A stretch of DNA of 61,875 nt from a virus, in the UHGV virus genome UHGV-0856201; one strand, 5' to 3'. A program made the position numbers and the translations under genes. This document shows positions 11,275-15,214 of this stretch, in pieces. Positions within the stretch are counted from its first letter, which is position 1, and each line of letters begins with the position of its first letter. The notes beneath the pieces are model-generated. The model worked only from the letters and a program-made list of their open reading frames with translations. It ran no database searches and was not told the origin of the DNA.

Positions 11275-12294
11275 ATGAGTTACAAACAGAATTTTCGCGA
11301 CGTTGGCGCACCAGATACATTCCTGTCTAACTTTTCTGTAAGTTACTGGCAGGATACGTCACTGTTTGTCGGTACTCGTTATTTCCCGGTAGTTCCTGTT
11401 AACCAGGCTGCTGGTAAATTCCTGACTTACCCGAAAGGTTATTTCGGTCGTCCGGTTAACTCCAAACGTGCCGAAGATGGTGTTGCTAATACTATTGGTT
11501 ACAAAACCAAAAACCAGGGTTACACCGTTGATGACGATGCGATCCGCATCTTTATTTCTGACAAAAAACGTGCAAACGTTCAAAATGGTCAGCAACTGGA
11601 TATGGAAGCGTCAGCAGTAACCACAGATGCGTTGCTGATCAACAAAGAAGTGGATTTTGCTGAAAAATTCCTGACCGCTGGTAAATGGGGTCTTGATTTC
11701 AAGGGTAAAGACGCGTCTCCGTCCACGGGCGAATTCCTGAAATGGTCTAATGCGAATGCCGATCCGATTGGTGATATCCTGTCACGTCGTGTTGCGTTCT
11801 CTCTGGCATCCGGTGGTCGTCGCTGGAACAAAGCGCTGATGACGCTGGACGTGTATGACGCACTGACCCGTAGCCCGGCTGTTATTGACCGCATTAACGG
11901 TGGTTCTACCACTCAGAATCCGGGGATCGTGACTAAACAGGCACTGGCTGCACTGCTGGAAGTTGACGAATTGGAAATCATGCAGTCCGTGGTCAACATG
12001 GCTGCTGATGGCGTTGAAGACAGTAACGGCAATCCGCTGTCAGACTTCCAGTTTGCTAAAACTGGTGTACTGATGCTCAACTATGTTGAACCGACTGTTG
12101 GCAATATGAAACCTGTTGCGGCTGCGGGCTTCGTGTGGAACGAGTTCATCGGTCTGGGCGTTAACAACGGTCCGTCTATCCGTACCTATCCGGGTGTCGA
12201 AGGCCGTCGTGGTAATTTCGTTGAAGCGGAATTTGCCATTGATGTTCAGATGGTTGCACCTGACCTGGGCGTTCTGTTCTACGACGCGGTTTAA
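11275..12294 (+). CDS. major capsid protein
   Basis: 339 aa; gene order protease-scaffold-decoration-capsid; followed by terminator. Confidence 0.65.
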   Translation: MSYKQNFRDVGAPDTFLSNFSVSYWQDTSLFVGTRYFPVVPVNQAAGKFLTYPKGYFGRPVNSKRAEDGVANTIGYKTKNQGYTVDDDAIRIFISDKKRANVQNGQQLDMEASAVTTDALLINKEVDFAEKFLTAGKWGLDFKGKDASPSTGEFLKWSNANADPIGDILSRRVAFSLASGGRRWNKALMTLDVYDALTRSPAVIDRINGGSTTQNPGIVTKQALAALLEVDELEIMQSVVNMAADGVEDSNGNPLSDFQFAKTGVLMLNYVEPTVGNMKPVAAAGFVWNEFIGLGVNNGPSIRTYPGVEGRRGNFVEAEFAIDVQMVAPDLGVLFYDAV

Positions 12295-12313: not shown

Positions 12314-12341
12314 AAGGGGTGGCTTATGCTGCCCCTTTTTT
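12314..12341 (+). terminator. putative rho-independent terminator after capsid gene
   Basis: aagggg...cccctt stem followed by T-run. Confidence 0.5.
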
Positions 12342-12356
12342 CATGAGGTTAAAATC

Positions 12357-12710
12357 ATGCGTAATTCATATGATCCGTCACTGAAATATGTTTTCACCCG
12401 TCCGATACTGTGGAACGGTAAACAGATGTCCGCTGGCGATAAAGTATCAACATCAAAAGCTACCCCGGCTGTTTTAAATGCCCTTGTGCGTATGCGCCAC
12501 ATTGAACCAGCTACTGCGACTGTTGAAGAACCAGTGATTGTAGCAACCGAAGAATCGGCATCAACCACATCTGCTGAAATCCGACGTGACGCGCCAAAAA
12601 CCTATAACGTTTATGTTATGGGTATGCCGATGAATTCAGAATCGTTTAGTAGTAAAAGTGCCGCTGCTGAATGGTGTGAATCACAAGGCTTGACATATAA
12701 CTATTCTTGA
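12357..12710 (+). CDS. hypothetical protein
   Basis: ATG at 12357 with RBS gaggt; 117 aa. Confidence 0.45.
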   Translation: MRNSYDPSLKYVFTRPILWNGKQMSAGDKVSTSKATPAVLNALVRMRHIEPATATVEEPVIVATEESASTTSAEIRRDAPKTYNVYVMGMPMNSESFSSKSAAAEWCESQGLTYNYS

Positions 12711-13392
12711 CCTATTGTTAGTTGTAGATAGTTTTCGTGGCGACTTTGCGGACTTTTTAGAAACTGACCACAAAGATAAATGCAAACGAAGAACGTTTTC
12801 TGATGGCGGCGTAATAGCCTGTAAGTCAGCAAGGTCTTCCGATTCCTTGTAAATAAATTCGGCGCACTGGCCCGGTGTGATTAATAATGGGCACCCACGA
12901 ATGAGAGTACTGTGATTGATCGTCGTTCTTGCGCGCAAAGTCTGCTCGAAGACAGTATTCTCATTCGTGGGTAACAACGGGCATATCGCCTTAGTAAATC
13001 CCTCAAGGGTGCGGCGAATAATCCGGTAATGTCGTTGCCGTAAGCCACACGAAACGTGGCACACAACAGGTAAGAGCATTGGGTAATGTAAAGCTGTGCT
13101 GCGACGATTACCATACATCTCAGTGCTCTTATCGTTGTGGTGAATTGCAGTTCTCAGAAACAACCAGAAGATAAGCGCCTGGCACTGCAACCAAACACTC
13201 GCTGATAAGGAGGTGATCCTTATCTTGCTGGCGGGAAAGCCGCAAATCGTGGGTAAAGCATGTTGTGAAACATCCTGAACTGCGTGTCGTTTTACATAAC
13301 TGGTTATTCACGTGTCACGCATAGGGGTATGTTGGGACGTCAGGTGTGGATGACCAGTTATGTAAAACCCTCATTATCACCCAGAGCCATTT
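12711..13392. other. long non-coding structured region inside structural module
   Basis: No convincing ORF on either strand; 19-bp inverted repeat 12894-12912/12952-12970; hairpin gataagga-ggtga-tccttatc. Confidence 0.4.
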
Positions 13393-13418
13393 GCCGTCTG
13401 TTTAAGACGGCTTTTTTT
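13393..13418 (+). terminator. rho-independent terminator
   Basis: gccgtctgtttaagacggc followed by TTTTTTT. Confidence 0.65.
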
Positions 13419-13457
13419 CGTGCTAATATAACGAAAACATTTCTCACAGGTGATCAC

Positions 13458-13868
13458 ATGGCTATTACAGTTGAAGGTATTCGTTATTTGATCAGTGTCC
13501 CTGATGTTACTGATGAACAAATTCAGTGGTACATTGACAACGGTTATACAAATCCTCTCAGTATTTGCGTCGCTCTCTGTGATTATATGGCGTCTATTGC
13601 CAGCAACGATACTGACATTAAAGTAGGTCCGATCTCACTCAGCAGTAGTCAGTCAGCAGACGCCTGGAATAAACTTAAAAAAGATTTTATTTTACGTATT
13701 AATACTGGCGCTGATTCAGGTGGCGGTTTGTTAGGTGGTTTTATGGGTGTCGGTGGAGCTACATTAACTGGCGCTGGTATGCAACCTGCTATTCAGCGTG
13801 GTCAGTTCGACAACCCACCTGTAACACTTGAAAGCGGTGGTCGTGCACTTAACGAAGGTGAACGGTGA
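13458..13868 (+). CDS. hypothetical structural protein (head-tail region)
   Basis: ATG 13458 after terminator; 136 aa, Gly-rich C-terminus. Confidence 0.4.
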   Translation: MAITVEGIRYLISVPDVTDEQIQWYIDNGYTNPLSICVALCDYMASIASNDTDIKVGPISLSSSQSADAWNKLKKDFILRINTGADSGGGLLGGFMGVGGATLTGAGMQPAIQRGQFDNPPVTLESGGRALNEGER

Positions 13869-14242: not shown

Positions 14243-15214
14243 CTATAACATCCGTATCAGAGTGGTTATATTTGGATTCCATTTTAACCACTCTGTACAA
14301 CCATCGAACCCTGTTAATCCTGCAGATTCAAAATGAGAATGAAAATCTTTTTCAAGTGAACGAATGGTTGCCCCGTGTCCATTCAATTTTTCTATTACTT
14401 GAAAATCAAATGGTGTTTTTCTACGAAGTGTATTAATTCTTTGCTCTACACAATTACTGATACCTATTTTAACGTAACGACCGCATGTGGACCGCAAGAC
14501 ATAAAGTGTTGCATACTTACCAGCTTTAAACCCTGTTTTACTACAGTTTGGACAACCTTTTTGTTTACTAAGAAAAGAATTAATTGTTGTAACAAAATCA
14601 CCATGCGTTGAACACTTTAATGATATTTTAGATTTCCATGTCGGATGTTCGTCGAATATCTTATTAAAAAACAACCCTGTTTCTTTACATCTATTTGTTA
14701 TTTCAATTTCTCGTTCTTGTTTAGTTTTCTGTCTATTCGTTATACACAATGGACAATCAACAGATGTAAAGATTAGTCTATTGACTGTTGTCTCCCATCC
14801 ACCATGATCAATACAGCTCAGCAAACAAACAGAATTTCCATTTTGAAAATTAGTTTTAAATTTAATAAACTTTGATTTAGAATCTGTTAAACTGTTTTTA
14901 ATCTGTGCAATTCTTAACCCTTTTGTGGTTCGTGTTCCACCACAGATTGGACAACCAGAACCATTCAAAAAATGATAACATTTAGTGTCCCATTCCCCGT
15001 GTGTAACACAAGATAAAATAATTCGTGATTCTTTGTTTTTAAACCCGTCTTTCCATTTTATAAATTTGTAATTTTTTGATTGACAAATATCTTTTATGTT
15101 ATGCTCTAGTTGTTCTTTGGTTAGTCTTTTACCGCCCATTTTTCTACCTTTAGGTTTGTCAATGACTAGCAAAATCAATGATATAAATCGTATTACTGGA
15201 GTGTTTAAAGACAT
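14243..15214 (-). CDS. T5orf172-domain protein with Zn-ribbon repeats, paralog 2
   Basis: C-terminus nearly identical to paralog 1 (GFDGCTEWLKWNPNITTLIR); repeated C..HGxW..C modules. Confidence 0.65.
   Translation of the reverse strand: MSLNTPVIRFISLILLVIDKPKGRKMGGKRLTKEQLEHNIKDICQSKNYKFIKWKDGFKNKESRIILSCVTHGEWDTKCYHFLNGSGCPICGGTRTTKGLRIAQIKNSLTDSKSKFIKFKTNFQNGNSVCLLSCIDHGGWETTVNRLIFTSVDCPLCITNRQKTKQEREIEITNRCKETGLFFNKIFDEHPTWKSKISLKCSTHGDFVTTINSFLSKQKGCPNCSKTGFKAGKYATLYVLRSTCGRYVKIGISNCVEQRINTLRRKTPFDFQVIEKLNGHGATIRSLEKDFHSHFESAGLTGFDGCTEWLKWNPNITTLIRML

What the first reader, a model, noticed from the sequence alone, without database searches (positions are those of the whole stretch)
12711..13457. 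~740-bp ORF-poor structured region between capsid and neck genes
Neither strand has a convincing CDS here; the minus ORF 12681-13190 lacks an RBS and looks random. The region is bounded by terminator-like hairpins (12314-12341 and 13393-13418). It contains a 19-bp inverted repeat with one mismatch (12894-12912 / 12952-12970) and the hairpin gataagga-ggtga-tccttatc, whose sequence taaggaggtgatc is a perfect extended Shine-Dalgarno. Candidates are a structured ncRNA, a packaging or regulatory signal, or a degraded mobile element.
Basis: seen in the sequence. Interest (0 to 1): 0.5.

Follow-up and report, generated by a model that had tools for sequence, protein, structure and literature searches.

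The report
Phage RNA mimicking and targeting tmRNA
The "empty" gap between the capsid and neck genes encodes a non-coding RNA: one part copies the tag-coding section of the bacterial ribosome-rescue RNA (tmRNA) but lacks its tRNA-like end, and the other part is complementary to the host's own tmRNA, which suggests that many enterobacterial phages reprogram or block host ribosome rescue.

Summary
In detail: 12711-13457 has no credible CDS, is highly structured, and lies between a sigma-70-like promoter (12690-12718) and a terminator (13393-13418).

The key part is 12727-12892.
- Nt 12772-12892 are homologous in layout to the mRNA-like domain of tmRNA: an A-rich linker with U(-5) and A(-4), a 10-codon tag frame (ANEERFLMAA plus UAA UAG), the P5 helix around the stop codon, and two H-type pseudoknots. 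Covariation across 60 variants is strong (92.5% paired; 0 of 500 shuffles).
- 83 of 83 unique variants keep an intact 10-codon frame.
- The element occurs in 858 phage records from at least five phage families and in lambdoid prophages. It is almost never annotated and is absent from Rfam.
- No tRNA-like (acceptor) domain exists anywhere in the window.
- Instead, the 5' 45 nt (12727-12771) are antisense to host tmRNA nt 55-107 (40 predicted pairs). This is the best match to ssrA among 12,366 windows, and it is conserved in all variants.

Best model (inferred): a surrogate "coding piece" docks on host Ala-tmRNA, masks its resume codon and offers a phage tag. The main rival is a pure antisense inhibitor.

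The rest of the region is a set of modular hairpins. I found no description of this element in the literature. Interest is high.

The parts
12690..12718 (+). Sigma-70-like promoter: TTGACA, 17-nt spacer, TATTGT. The predicted start is around 12724-12727. It lies inside the 3' end of the upstream gene (12357-12710).
   Evidence: 10 of 12 matches. The same layout, with the promoter ending a few nt before (GAT)AGTTTTCGT, is seen in Sf11, GP-1, HP1 and SUSP2. A strict regex finds it in 11 of 112 copies.
12727..12771 (+). Antisense ('docking') arm, complementary to host tmRNA nt 55-107 (E. coli K-12 numbering). Blocks: 12729-38 UAGUUUUCGU with 97-106 (tag codons 3-6); 12740-45 GCGACU with 86-91 (A86 and resume-codon G90, C91); 12746-51 with 75-80 (3' strand of PK1 stem 2); 12753-59 with 68-74; 12760-71 with 55-66.
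   Evidence: 40 pairs (38 Watson-Crick, 2 G-U), -42.0 kcal/mol; ranks 1 and 2 of 12,366 windows (scores 50.0 and 47.5; mean 22.5, sd 3.6); all 52 unique arms target the same site; complementarity to host exceeds complementarity to the phage's own RNA in 83 of 83; the seed target is present in about 80 of 120 ssrA genes.
12772..12781 (+). 10-nt A-rich linker AAAGAUAAAU in front of the resume codon. U(-5), A(-4), A(-3) and U(-1) are nearly invariant.
   Evidence: In E. coli tmRNA the PK1-to-resume-codon linker is 11 nt (AAAAAAUAGUC), and A86 (-4) is essential for frame selection (PMC2481249).
12782..12817 (+). Tag reading frame GCA AAC GAA GAA CGU UUU CUG AUG GCG GCG (ANEERFLMAA), followed by UAA UAG.
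   Evidence: (sub-threshold Rfam tmRNA matches), 37 and 38: 83 of 83 unique variants have 10 codons of the form AN[D/E]xxx[L/R]xxA; the last codon is GCN with all four third bases; Leu is CUG or UUG; the stop is UAA, UGA or UAG; local alignment to E. coli ssrA nt 79-129.
12800..12829 (+). P5-like helix that encloses the stop codons (12800-03 with 12826-29; 12808-10 with 12817-19).
   Evidence: the outer helix is 93% paired and covaries (GC:30 / AU:25). The inner helix is only 64% paired in this alignment, because the LMAA and LAVA types are in different registers.
12830..12862 (+). Pseudoknot A (H-type): stem 1 is 12830-34 with 12845-49; stem 2 is 12839-42 with 12859-62.
   Evidence: 99% and 100% paired; compensatory changes at 6 of 9 pairs (for example CG:30/UA:30 and GC:41/AU:19).
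12863..12892 (+). Pseudoknot B: stem 1 is 12863-68 with 12874-79; stem 2 is 12870-73 with 12889-92. The loop UGAUUAAUAA (12878-87) is invariant.
   Evidence: stem 1 is 99.7% paired (CG:44 / GC:11 / UA:5). Stem 2 is 70-87% paired and is expanded in some lineages. The search pattern required the loop in the IMG/VR copies, but it is also invariant in the BLAST-derived copies.
12893..13059 (+).
   Evidence: Absent in Sf11, GP-1 and most other copies. Conserved in lambdoid prophage L004 with compensatory changes. Found in 9 phage records. The ACGAAAC loop occurs at about +160 in the long-form subset (about 12 loci counted in the 45 of 83 unique cores listed).
13060..13141 (+). 'Module B' punctuation hairpin: 5' half CACAACAGGUAAGAGCAUU, a variable tip, and 3' half GUGCUCUUAUCGUUGUG.
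   Evidence: The halves covary between phages (AAGAACAC/GUGUUCUU in Carvaje; AAGGGUAU/GUGCCCUU in cp21; AAUAUU.../...AAUAUU in HP1). It flanks the tag module on both sides in prophage L004. The 3' half is also found next to plp in P1 and P7.
13145..13190 (+). Hairpin UUGCAGU...ACUGCAA.
   Evidence: present in both the MFE and centroid structures. Conserved in Sasha and PJ16.
13204..13278 (+). Hairpin 13204-13224, which sequesters UAAGGAGGUGAUC (perfect complement of the 16S rRNA 3' end), followed by a 17-codon ORF starting at TTG 13225 (MLAGKPQIVGKACCETS*, 13225-13278). Status undecided.
   Evidence: Carvaje shows 2 synonymous and 2 non-synonymous differences, plus a compensatory pair in an internal hairpin. 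The segment occurs in only 24 records.
13289..13368 (+). Long hairpin (23-nt arms, 91% complementary).
   Evidence: Absent in Carvaje.
13393..13418 (+). Intrinsic terminator GCCGUCUGUUUAAGACGGC plus U7. This is the likely 3' end of the roughly 690-nt primary transcript.
   Evidence: Conserved in Sasha, PJ16 and Carvaje. Annotated as a terminator in the Sasha record.

Best explanation
The gap is a non-coding RNA transcription unit of about 690 nt, running from promoter 12690-12718 to terminator 13393-13418. Its functional core is a bipartite RNA of about 166 nt (12727-12892).

- The 3' two-thirds is a tmRNA-derived mRNA-like domain: linker, resume codon, a 10-codon degradation-tag-like frame, P5 and two pseudoknots.
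- The 5' 45 nt replace the tRNA-like domain and PK1 of a real tmRNA. They form an arm complementary to the host's own tmRNA, running from the 3' half of PK1 through the resume codon to tag codon 6.

Proposed mechanism (inferred, not shown):
1. The arm anneals to host Ala-tmRNA, opening PK1 and burying the host's A86 and resume codon.
2. The intermolecular helix takes the structural place of PK1.
3. The phage linker and resume codon emerge 10 nt from that helix, compared with 11 nt in the native molecule.
4. A ribosome rescued by the hijacked host tRNA-like domain and SmpB therefore resumes on the phage template and appends AANEERFLMAA in place of AANDENYALAA.

In effect the phage would turn the host's one-piece tmRNA into a two-piece tmRNA with a phage-specified tag. 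The downstream hairpins are modular punctuation or processing elements, shared with phage tRNA islands.

What is shown: the RNA structure, the conservation of the frame, the absence of an acceptor domain, and the complementarity to host tmRNA together with its conservation. What is inferred: annealing in vivo, translation of the phage tag, and the benefit to the phage.
For: (1) tmRNA-like coding domain.
- Sub-threshold Rfam matches to tmRNA families lie exactly on the tag.
- ARAGORN reads the homologous HP1 copy as a tag peptide with a resume consensus.
- There is a local alignment to E. coli ssrA nt 79-129, which is in the top 0.1% of sense matches in the window.

(2) Translation-type constraint.
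- 83 of 83 unique variants have exactly 10 codons.
- The final Ala codon is GCN with all four third bases, and Leu is CUG or UUG.
- The stop interchanges among UAA, UGA and UAG.
- U(-5) and A(-4) are invariant, matching the known frame-setting determinants U85 and A86 (PMC2481249).

(3) Real RNA structure.
- 92.5% of cells are paired, against 28-45% when partners are slid.
- 0 of 500 shuffles reach the observed covariation, and both pseudoknots show compensatory changes.

(4) No acceptor domain.
- ARAGORN finds nothing in the window, even at relaxed thresholds near the locus.
- No Rfam family reaches gathering score, and T-arm motifs are at chance level.
- Orphan acceptor-like pieces accompany only 8 of 113 copies.

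(5) Antisense arm.
- 40 predicted pairs with host nt 55-107.
- Ranks 1 and 2 of 12,366 windows in a block-complementarity scan of the whole 61.9 kb, both strands.
- All 52 unique arms hit the same host site, with a median z of -4.6 against shuffles.
- The arm matches host tmRNA far better than its own RNA in 83 of 83 variants (medians 45.5 and 20).
- Common substitutions are wobble-preserving.
- Divergent lineages use different arm sequences against the same host nt 79-107.
- The fit is best for Enterobacteriaceae ssrA and decays outside the family.
- The Pantoea phage's arm fits the Pantoea ssrA best.

(6) Feasibility, from established work.
- PK1 and the tag template can be replaced without loss of tmRNA function, and structure around the resume codon abolishes it (PMC2481249).
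- Oligonucleotides complementary to tmRNA suppress trans-translation in vitro (PMC3384345).

(7) Context.
- 858 phage records.
- 36 of 112 copies lie within 1 kb of a tRNA gene, all on the same strand.
- In lambdoid prophages the element sits between Q and the holin gene.
Against: - There are no expression, 5'/3'-end or interaction data.
- Everything about annealing and tag use is in silico.
- Raw RNAduplex energies are not exceptional genome-wide, and a standard BLAST does not flag the antisense match because it is split into blocks of 6-10 nt.
- For the short AU-rich arms of divergent lineages, composition-matched z-scores are only -0.8 to -2.
- The host target is so conserved that host-specific covariation rests on a single position in a single lineage.
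- Salmonella-type ssrA (ANDETY) has a central mismatch to the invariant seed, yet many Salmonella phages carry the element unchanged.
- Full pairing requires unfolding host PK1.
- A translating ribosome can unwind a duplex of about 10 bp, so masking may be leaky.
- Whether a ribosome could load a template that is only base-paired to tmRNA, with the host's own PK2-PK4 ring still attached, is unknown.
- The IMG/VR copies were retrieved with a pattern that fixed TGCAAACGA and TGATTAATAA, which inflates the apparent invariance of those two motifs.
Confidence: 0.42

Rival explanations
1. Pure antisense inhibitor or decoy. The 5' arm anneals to host tmRNA and blocks its template, or triggers cleavage by RNase E or RNase III. 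The tmRNA-like body serves only for stability, or to bind tmRNA partners such as ribosomal protein S1, SmpB or RNase R. The phage tag is never translated, and the net effect is to shut down or titrate host trans-translation.
For: The complementarity evidence is the same as for the main model. Oligos complementary to tmRNA inhibit trans-translation in vitro (PMC3384345). A phage-encoded partial tmRNA (the TLD-only form of phage DS6A) is reported to inhibit endogenous tmRNA (PMC4131195; PMC11915505). This model needs no unusual ribosome loading.
Against: It does not explain why the frame is kept at exactly 10 codons in 83 of 83 variants, with synonymous-type variation, a preserved but interchangeable stop codon, and the U(-5)/A(-4) frame-setting context. 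It also does not explain why the linker length mimics the native spacing from PK1 to the resume codon. Many phages are reported to need ribosome rescue, so blocking it outright seems costly (general knowledge).
Confidence: 0.27
2. The coding piece of a genuine phage tmRNA. The acceptor (tRNA-like) part exists but was not recognised: it could be highly derived, made by processing of the flanking hairpins, or supplied by neighbouring tRNA-like genes in other phages. On this view the complementarity to host tmRNA is incidental.
For: Natural two-piece tmRNAs exist. The best Rfam matches are to permuted or two-piece families, and ARAGORN calls a permuted tmRNA in HP1. Several lineages carry uncalled tRNA-like elements near the module, some ending in NCCA. 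The long form has a hairpin of T-arm dimensions (5-bp stem, 7-nt loop) whose loop can pair with the 5' motif.
Against: Nothing in the 61.9-kb window has a T-loop, a G3:U70 acceptor stem or a CCA end. Copies with their own promoter start transcription at the 5' motif, leaving no room for a 5' acceptor strand. The neighbouring tRNA-like pieces are lineage-specific (8 of 113), lack G3:U70, and are missing in close relatives such as MK-13. ARAGORN's HP1 'acceptor' lies about 500 nt upstream, across three tRNA genes.
Confidence: 0.12
3. Non-functional or selfish passenger. On this view the module is a fragment captured from a bacterial ssrA that travels with mobile tRNA or hairpin cassettes. The region would then be a degraded mobile element, or a spacer with cis roles such as termination, processing or a packaging signal.
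For: The distribution is patchy and modular, with indels between close relatives. The conserved hairpin ends resemble cassette boundaries. Sasha-type Salmonella phages do without the module.
Against: Covarying helices and an intact frame across 83 unique variants, in at least five phage families at down to about 71% identity, indicate purifying selection. The module differs from host ssrA exactly where self-pairing with its own arm would occur. The same element appears in quite different genomic positions, which argues against a capsid-neck cis signal.
Confidence: 0.07
4. A protein-coding gene on the minus strand (12681-13190, annotated as hypothetical protein PJ16_048 in a relative), or genes disrupted by sequencing errors.
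For: An ORF of 169 aa exists, and part of it is annotated in the PJ16 record.
Against: It has no PHROG or Pfam match. Sasha deletes 337 nt of it and Sf11-type copies delete another 160 nt. Conservation follows RNA helices on the plus strand.
Confidence: 0.01

Closest known systems
Bacterial tmRNA (SsrA; Rfam RF00023 and clan CL00001)
   Same: A-rich linker with U(-5) and A(-4), a GCA resume codon, a 10-codon AND...-type tag ending in Ala plus double stops, the P5 helix around the stop codon, and H-type pseudoknots following it. There is direct sequence similarity to E. coli ssrA nt 79-129.
   Different: It has no tRNA-like domain (no acceptor stem, T-arm or CCA), no P2 and no PK1, and only two downstream pseudoknots. 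It scores 23-28 bits against gathering thresholds of 47-84. The 5' end is antisense to tmRNA and is not part of a tRNA-like fold.
Two-piece (circularly permuted) tmRNAs of alpha- and some beta-proteobacteria and cyanobacteria
   Same: The coding RNA is separate from the acceptor RNA and is held to it only by base pairing. This is the closest mechanistic analogy to the proposed phage-host hybrid.
   Different: In natural two-piece tmRNAs, both pieces come from one gene of the same organism and pair through P1 and P2. Here the partner would be the host's intact one-piece tmRNA, and pairing would be through its PK1 and template region.
TLD-only tmRNA of mycobacteriophage DS6A, and complete tmRNAs of Bxz1-like mycobacteriophages and Bacillus phage G
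   Same: These are phage-encoded derivatives of tmRNA. The DS6A form is a partial tmRNA reported to inhibit endogenous tmRNA (PMC4131195; PMC11915505).
   Different: DS6A keeps the tRNA-like domain and lacks the tag. This element is the reciprocal, with the tag present and the tRNA-like domain absent, and it adds an antisense arm. The hosts and phage families are different.
Trans-acting base-pairing sRNAs with 5'-terminal seeds, and phage or prophage anti-sRNAs (for example AgvB and AsxR in EHEC; recalled from memory)
   Same: An invariant 9-10-nt seed at the extreme 5' end, with multi-block imperfect pairing to a host RNA.
   Different: The target is tmRNA, not an mRNA or sRNA. The body of the RNA mimics the target's template. 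Hfq dependence is unknown.
Synthetic anti-tmRNA oligonucleotides used in cell-free translation
   Same: They pair with tmRNA to suppress trans-translation (PMC3384345).
   Different: They are artificial, carry no replacement template, and are not natural regulators.

Membership tests
tmRNA (one-piece, RF00023) | tRNA-like domain: acceptor stem with G3:U70, T-arm, and a 3' (N)CCA end | tested here: not met
   ARAGORN finds no tRNA or tmRNA in the window, and none at relaxed thresholds around the locus. T-loop motifs are at chance level and none is near the locus. Copies with their own promoter start at the 5' motif.
tmRNA (one-piece, RF00023) | Internal tag reading frame that starts at a resume codon without an SD or AUG and ends in stop codon(s), preceded by the conserved U/A frame-setting context | tested here: met
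   12782-12817. 83 of 83 variants are intact, with coding-type variation and invariant U(-5) and A(-4). The determinants are those described in PMC2481249.
tmRNA (one-piece, RF00023) | Stop codon within helix P5, followed by pseudoknots | tested here: met
   The outer P5 helix and both pseudoknots are supported by covariation. There are only two pseudoknots, where typical tmRNA has three (PK2-PK4).
tmRNA (one-piece, RF00023) | PK1 (or a replacement helix) between P2 and the linker, and a P2 helix closing the ring | tested here: not met
   The 5' region has no conserved cis partner: its score against its own RNA equals background. In the long-form subset, a loop ACGAAAC could pair with the 5' motif.
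tmRNA (one-piece, RF00023) | Reaches Rfam's curated gathering score | tested here: not met
   Best scores are 23.5-27.8 bits in the window (up to 32.3 in relatives), against thresholds of 47-84. Nothing reaches gathering score in the whole window.
Two-piece tmRNA (RF01849, RF01850, RF04321) | Acceptor piece (T-arm, 3' acceptor strand, CCA) encoded upstream of the coding piece in the same precursor | tested here: not met
   None is present in the window. ARAGORN's permuted call in HP1 joins pieces about 500 nt apart, across three tRNA genes. Acceptor-like pieces accompany 8 of 113 copies.
Trans-acting antisense sRNA | Conserved seed complementary to an accessible region of a defined target RNA | tested here: met
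   In silico only. The seed 12729-38 matches host nt 97-106, in the single-stranded template. The arm ranks first of 12,366 windows and is conserved in all variants.
Trans-acting antisense sRNA | Physical interaction with the target, and dependence on a chaperone such as Hfq or ProQ | not testable with these tools
   This needs RIL-seq or CLASH, EMSA, or genetics.
Protein-coding gene | A conserved ORF with family membership | tested here: not met
   The minus-strand ORF has no PHROG or Pfam hit and is disrupted by indels in relatives.

The most novel reading that the evidence does not exclude
Enterobacterial phages of at least five families, and lambdoid prophages, carry a small RNA that parasitises the host's ribosome-rescue system. 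It base-pairs with host tmRNA, silences the host tag template, and inserts its own. Every ribosome rescued during infection would then append a phage-chosen peptide tag. This would be a natural, trans-assembled, inter-organism 'two-piece tmRNA'.
Probability: 0.4. Interest if true: 0.95.

Novelty: categorically new. Interest (0 to 1): 0.86.

Why it matters
tmRNA-SmpB is the near-universal bacterial ribosome-rescue and protein-tagging system, and a candidate antibiotic target. No natural RNA is known to pair with tmRNA, and no acceptor-less, tag-encoding tmRNA derivative has been described. The 2014 and 2025 tmRNA censuses report only complete or tag-less phage forms.

If the model is right:
- Phages can rewrite the degradation tag, or switch off tagging, during infection. 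That would be a new layer of host takeover.
- It would explain a conserved, unannotated element in hundreds of therapeutic-candidate phages (FelixO1-like, Kuttervirus, Schitoviridae, the BASEL collection) and in E. coli prophages.
- It would provide a natural tool for reprogramming trans-translation.
- It would test directly whether the tmRNA template must be covalently linked to the tRNA-like domain.

Even the more modest reading, a natural antisense inhibitor of tmRNA, would be new. In practice, the family deserves an Rfam model so that phage annotations stop calling spurious ORFs across it.

Tried and rejected
- Rfam: no family reaches gathering score in the window. Only sub-threshold tmRNA matches appear, so the element is not a member of any curated family.
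- ARAGORN, default and relaxed: nothing at the locus.
- Search for a tRNA-like domain: T-loop motifs in the whole window are at chance level. Orphan T-arm pieces near other copies are lineage-specific. I considered and dropped a TYMV-like pseudoknotted acceptor formed by PK-B plus 'CCA', because the CCA is part of the next helix, is absent in short forms, and the stem length varies. I also dropped a P1-like pairing GUUGUG/CACAAC via module B, because it is absent in promoter-driven copies and covariation supports the local hairpin.
- Cis partner for the invariant 5' motif: ACGAAAC is present only in the long-form subset. The arm's complementarity to its own RNA is at background level.
- Two further segments, 12966-13016 and 13211-13290, gave large duplex energies with tmRNA nt 3-79 and 265-363. 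They are not outliers under genome-wide empirical nulls, so I treat them as unsupported.
- Raw RNAduplex energy is not discriminating, because G+C-rich windows score as well. Plain BLAST of ssrA against the window misses the block-wise antisense match. A gap-tolerant complementarity score was needed.
- Host-specific covariation: the target is too conserved for a strong test. Only the Pantoea case is informative.
- Minus-strand ORF as a gene: rejected.
- Literature: nine searches and several papers turned up no prior description. One Kuttervirus genome announcement lists '0 tmRNAs'. The library does not hold most subscription-journal papers, so prior description cannot be excluded.
Full report
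OBSERVATION

The interval 12711-13457 lies between the gene that follows the major head protein gene (head protein 11275-12294, PHROG 'major head protein'; following gene 12357-12710) and the first neck-region gene (13458-13868).

- No credible CDS. The only long ORF is minus-strand 12681-13190. It has no PHROG or Pfam match, and most of it is deleted in relatives.
- Terminator-like hairpins at 12314-12337 and 13393-13411, each followed by a T-run.
- A 21-nt inverted repeat, 95% complementary, at 12893-12913 / 12952-12972.
- The hairpin GATAAGGA-GGTGA-TCCTTATC at 13204-13224.
- Nt 12893-13420 fold far better than shuffled sequence, with z = -7.84.

With the terminator, it defines a transcription unit of about 690 nt on the plus strand.

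WHAT THE FIRST 170 NT ARE

A permissive Rfam scan gave only sub-threshold matches, but all were to tmRNA families and all lay on 12720-12863. The sequence reads GCA AAC GAA GAA CGU UUU CUG AUG GCG GCG UAA UAG, which translates to ANEERFLMAA**. The E. coli SsrA tag is ANDENYALAA.

Distribution:
- BLAST against 50,697 phage records found the full 740 bp only in two close relatives (Sashavirus BDX09P1 and E. coli phage PJ16). The first ~170 nt occur in 858 records.
- These records include 46-kb siphoviruses (Sf11, C1, BASEL phages), Schitoviridae, Ackermannviridae, FelixO1-like Ounavirinae and Chaseviridae.
- The element also occurs in E. coli lambdoid prophages, between the Q antiterminator and the holin gene.
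- It is almost never annotated. It often lies in tRNA clusters: 36 of 112 copies are within 1 kb of a tRNA gene, all on the same strand.

I collected 113 copies, of which 83 have unique cores.

Frame conservation:
- Every unique copy has an intact frame of exactly 10 codons, AN[D/E]xxx[L/R]xxA.
- The last codon is always GCN, with all four third bases.
- Leu is CUG or UUG.
- The stop interchanges among UAA, UGA and UAG.
- Positions -5, -4, -3 and -1 (U, A, A, U) are nearly invariant.
- U85 and A86, at -5 and -4, are the established frame-setting determinants of E. coli tmRNA (PMC2481249).
- The search pattern fixed TGCAAACGA and TGATTAATAA in the IMG/VR copies, so invariance of those two motifs is partly by construction. 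The other statements are not affected.

Structure, tested on a 60-sequence alignment:
- The helices tested were P5 around the stop codons, pseudoknot A (12830-34/12845-49 and 12839-42/12859-62) and pseudoknot B (12863-68/12874-79 and 12870-73/12889-92).
- 92.5% of cells are paired, against 28-45% when the 3' partners are slid by 1-3 columns.
- 14 pairs show changes on both sides.
- 0 of 500 shuffles reach the observed covariation.

So 12772-12892 has the architecture of a tmRNA mRNA-like domain (linker, resume codon, tag, P5, pseudoknots) and is under selection both as a structure and as a reading frame.

WHAT IS MISSING

A tmRNA needs an alanine-accepting tRNA-like domain. None is present:
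- ARAGORN finds no tRNA or tmRNA in the whole 61.9-kb window, and nothing at the locus even at relaxed thresholds.
- No Rfam family reaches gathering score.
- T-loop motifs are at chance frequency and none is near the locus.
- In the copies that have their own promoter (this window, Sf11, GP-1, HP1, SUSP2), transcription would start right at the conserved 5' motif (GAU)AGUUUUCGU. That leaves no room for a 5' acceptor strand.
- Uncalled tRNA-like pieces do occur near the module in some lineages, but they are lineage-specific (8 of 113 for the most recurrent type) and lack G3:U70. They are also missing in close relatives.
- ARAGORN's 'permuted tmRNA' in HP1 joins the real tag to a T-arm about 500 nt upstream, across three tRNA genes. 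I regard that as an artefact that nevertheless recognises the tag.

THE 5' ARM

The invariant 5' motif AGUUUUCGU is the exact reverse complement of ACGAAAACU in the E. coli ssrA tag frame (codons D-E-N-Y). This target is present in about 80 of 120 ssrA genes sampled from Enterobacterales and relatives (the ANDENY types). It is absent from the ANDETY, ANDEQY and ANDSQY types.

Extending the comparison, the whole 5' domain 12727-12771 is predicted to form 40 pairs (38 Watson-Crick, 2 G-U; -42 kcal/mol) with host tmRNA nt 55-107:

| Phage nt | Phage sequence | Host tmRNA nt | Host feature |
|---|---|---|---|
| 12729-38 | UAGUUUUCGU | 97-106 | tag codons 3-6 |
| 12740-45 | GCGACU | 86-91 | A86 and resume-codon G90, C91 |
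| 12746-51 | UUUGCG | 75-80 | 3' strand of PK1 stem 2 |
| 12753-59 | CUUUUUA | 68-74 | PK1 |
| 12760-71 | (two short helices) | 55-66 | PK1 |

Host A81-U85 are bulged out.

I challenged this result in several ways.

Controls that did not support it:
- Raw duplex energy is not exceptional genome-wide, because G+C-rich windows do as well.
- Plain BLAST does not see the block-wise match.

Controls that did:
- With a gap-tolerant complementarity score applied to every 50-nt window of the 61.9 kb on both strands, the two best of 12,366 windows are exactly this arm in antisense orientation. They score 50.0 and 47.5, against a mean of 22.5 and sd of 3.6. The next unrelated window scores 42. The adjacent tag region is in the top 0.1% in sense orientation.
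- All 52 unique arms are predicted to bind the same host site, ending at nt 106-108, with a median z of -4.6 against composition-matched shuffles.
- In 83 of 83 variants the arm is far more complementary to host tmRNA (median 45.5) than to its own downstream RNA (median 20, equal to background). So this is not a by-product of a cis fold.
- The phage template differs from the host template exactly at the paired blocks: UAAAUGCAAACGAAGAACGU in the phage, UAGUCGCAAACGACGAAAACU in the host.
- Substitutions in the arm are mostly wobble-preserving. C-to-U opposite host G accounts for 35 cells, while the pair-breaking mirror transition G-to-A opposite host C accounts for 13.
- Divergent lineages (FelixO1-like, Chaseviridae and others) have shorter, differently built arms. 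These pair almost continuously with host nt 79-107, through the seed plus a GCG[A/G/U]CU[A/G]UUUUU block against the linker and resume codon. They are different solutions for the same target, though their composition-matched z-scores are only -0.8 to -2.
- The fit is best for Escherichia-type ssrA and good across Enterobacteriaceae. It is weaker for Pasteurellaceae and Aeromonas, and the site is lost in ANDSQY-type tmRNAs.
- The Pantoea phage's arm (flank AAG) fits the Pantoea ssrA (...AACUUU) best. This is a single informative position.

MECHANISM

Shown:
- A structured RNA under selection.
- A tmRNA-type template under translation-type constraint.
- No acceptor domain.
- A conserved arm complementary to host tmRNA across its resume codon.

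Inferred:
- The arm anneals to host Ala-tmRNA.
- The intermolecular helix replaces PK1. PK1 is replaceable, and structure around the resume codon inactivates tmRNA (PMC2481249).
- The phage linker of 10 nt (11 nt in the native molecule) presents the phage resume codon to the SmpB-loaded ribosome.
- Rescued ribosomes therefore append the phage tag.

I put this 'tag-swap' model at about 0.4. It is the only reading that explains both the arm and the preserved reading frame.

The main rival is a pure antisense inhibitor or decoy, at about 0.27. Precedents are synthetic anti-tmRNA oligonucleotides (PMC3384345) and the inhibitory TLD-only RNA of phage DS6A. It explains the arm but not the frame.

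An unrecognised acceptor partner is at about 0.12. A selfish or cis-acting remnant is at about 0.07. A protein gene is at about 0.01.

Difficulties for the main model:
- Salmonella-type ssrA has a central seed mismatch, although many Salmonella phages carry the element.
- PK1 must be opened.
- Nobody knows whether a non-covalently attached template can be loaded by the ribosome.

THE REST OF THE REGION

- It is absent from Sf11, GP-1 and most other copies.
- It is conserved, with compensatory changes, in lambdoid prophages.
- It ends in a hairpin (13045-59) with a 5-bp stem and a 7-nt loop ACGAAAC. The loop nearly copies the host sequence bound by the seed. It may be a cis competitor or a ring closure, but this is unexplained.

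Nt 13060-13141 are a 'module B' hairpin:
- Its two halves covary between phages.
- The hairpins flank the tag module on both sides in the prophage.
- The 3' half also lies next to plp in P1 and P7.
- Together with the hairpins at 13145-13190 and 13289-13368, these look like punctuation or processing elements of phage tRNA and ncRNA islands.
- Carvaje, a relative with the same capsid-neck layout, carries a tRNA-Ser in this slot.

Nt 13204-13278 combine a hairpin-sequestered, perfect 13-nt anti-16S sequence with a 17-codon TTG ORF. Whether it is coding or RNA is undecided.

Sasha, Sergei and Solent (Salmonella hosts) lack 12721-13057, while the E. coli relatives have it.

COMPARISON AND NOVELTY

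The element works like the coding half of a two-piece tmRNA, but it fails the membership tests for tmRNA: no tRNA-like domain, no P2 or PK1, and scores below every Rfam threshold.

The only partial phage tmRNA described is the reciprocal form, which has a tRNA-like domain and no tag. The censuses of 2014 and 2025, the latter covering RefSeq viruses, list nothing like this element. A Kuttervirus genome announcement reports '0 tmRNAs'. Searches for the tag peptides, for phage tmRNA, and for RNAs pairing with tmRNA found no description. The literature library is incomplete, so prior description cannot be excluded.

I rate the element as categorically new in kind: an acceptor-less, tmRNA-derived template fused to an anti-tmRNA arm. 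Its function remains to be shown experimentally.

Noticed in passing
window 13204-13278: The hairpin GAUAAGGA-GGUGA-UCCUUAUC sequesters UAAGGAGGUGAUC, which is 13 nt perfectly complementary to the 16S rRNA 3' end. Eleven nt downstream, TTG at 13225 opens a 17-codon ORF (MLAGKPQIVGKACCETS*). The Carvaje homolog shows 2 synonymous and 2 non-synonymous changes, plus a compensatory pair in an internal hairpin. The segment occurs in only 24 records of 9NA/Sasha/Carvaje-type phages. It could be a micro-protein or an RNA switch.
   Followed up: partly
window 14243-15214 (-): A 323-aa ORF on the opposite strand to the surrounding neck and tail genes, with CapR plus T5orf172/MUG113 (GIY-YIG-like) and zinc-finger domains. 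It is probably a free-standing homing endonuclease inserted into the structural module.
   Followed up: partly
window 13060-13141; L004 3925-3990 and 4335-4420; P1 NC_005856 69572-69633: A hairpin family with conserved halves (CACAACAGGUAAGAGCAUU ... GUGCUCUU[A/U][U/C]CGUUGUGGUGAA) and variable tips. It punctuates tRNA and ncRNA islands in unrelated phages, prophages and P1/P7 (next to plp). Some tips contain T-arm-like hairpins (Carvaje, GP-1). It may be a processing site or a cassette boundary.
   Followed up: partly
L005 ~1690-1760; L011 ~1350-1500; L005 1270-1345 and L009 970-1045; L012 ~1350-1430: Orphan tRNA-like elements that ARAGORN and Rfam do not call. PhaxI has one ending in CUCCAAU-C-CCA, with a GAAA-capped helix in place of the anticodon arm. 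PhAPEC7 has one of about 125 nt (UACCAGU...ACUGGUA-A-CCA). The Ackermannviridae have one of about 67 nt (GGUGAGG...CCUCGCC-A), whose acceptor stem covaries between PhaxI and cp21.
   Followed up: partly
window 12966-13016 and 13211-13290: These segments give large predicted duplexes with E. coli tmRNA nt 3-79 (-45 kcal/mol) and nt 265-363 (-58 kcal/mol; this includes the exact 10-mer GCUGGCGGGA against the T-stem and acceptor strand UCCCGCCAGC). They are not outliers under genome-wide empirical nulls, so they are probably chance or G+C-driven.
   Followed up: yes
window 13045-13059: A hairpin of T-arm dimensions (5-bp stem, 7-nt loop). Its loop ACGAAAC nearly copies the host tmRNA sequence bound by the 5' seed and can itself pair with the seed. 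The stem covaries with the prophage copy (CCAC/GUGG in the window, CUCC/GGAG in the prophage). It is found only in long-form copies.
   Followed up: partly
window 12878-12887: The loop UGAUUAAUAA of pseudoknot B is invariant in all copies, including those not retrieved with this motif. No pairing partner or known motif was found.
   Followed up: no
L002 (Sasha) 1922-1990, compared with window 12721-13057: The Salmonella phages Sasha, Sergei and Solent carry an unrelated segment of about 70 nt in place of the 337-nt tag module plus long-form module. The rest of the island (13058-13460) is 99% identical. E. coli-infecting relatives keep the module. This may correlate with the host tag type (ANDETY or ANDENY).
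   Followed up: no
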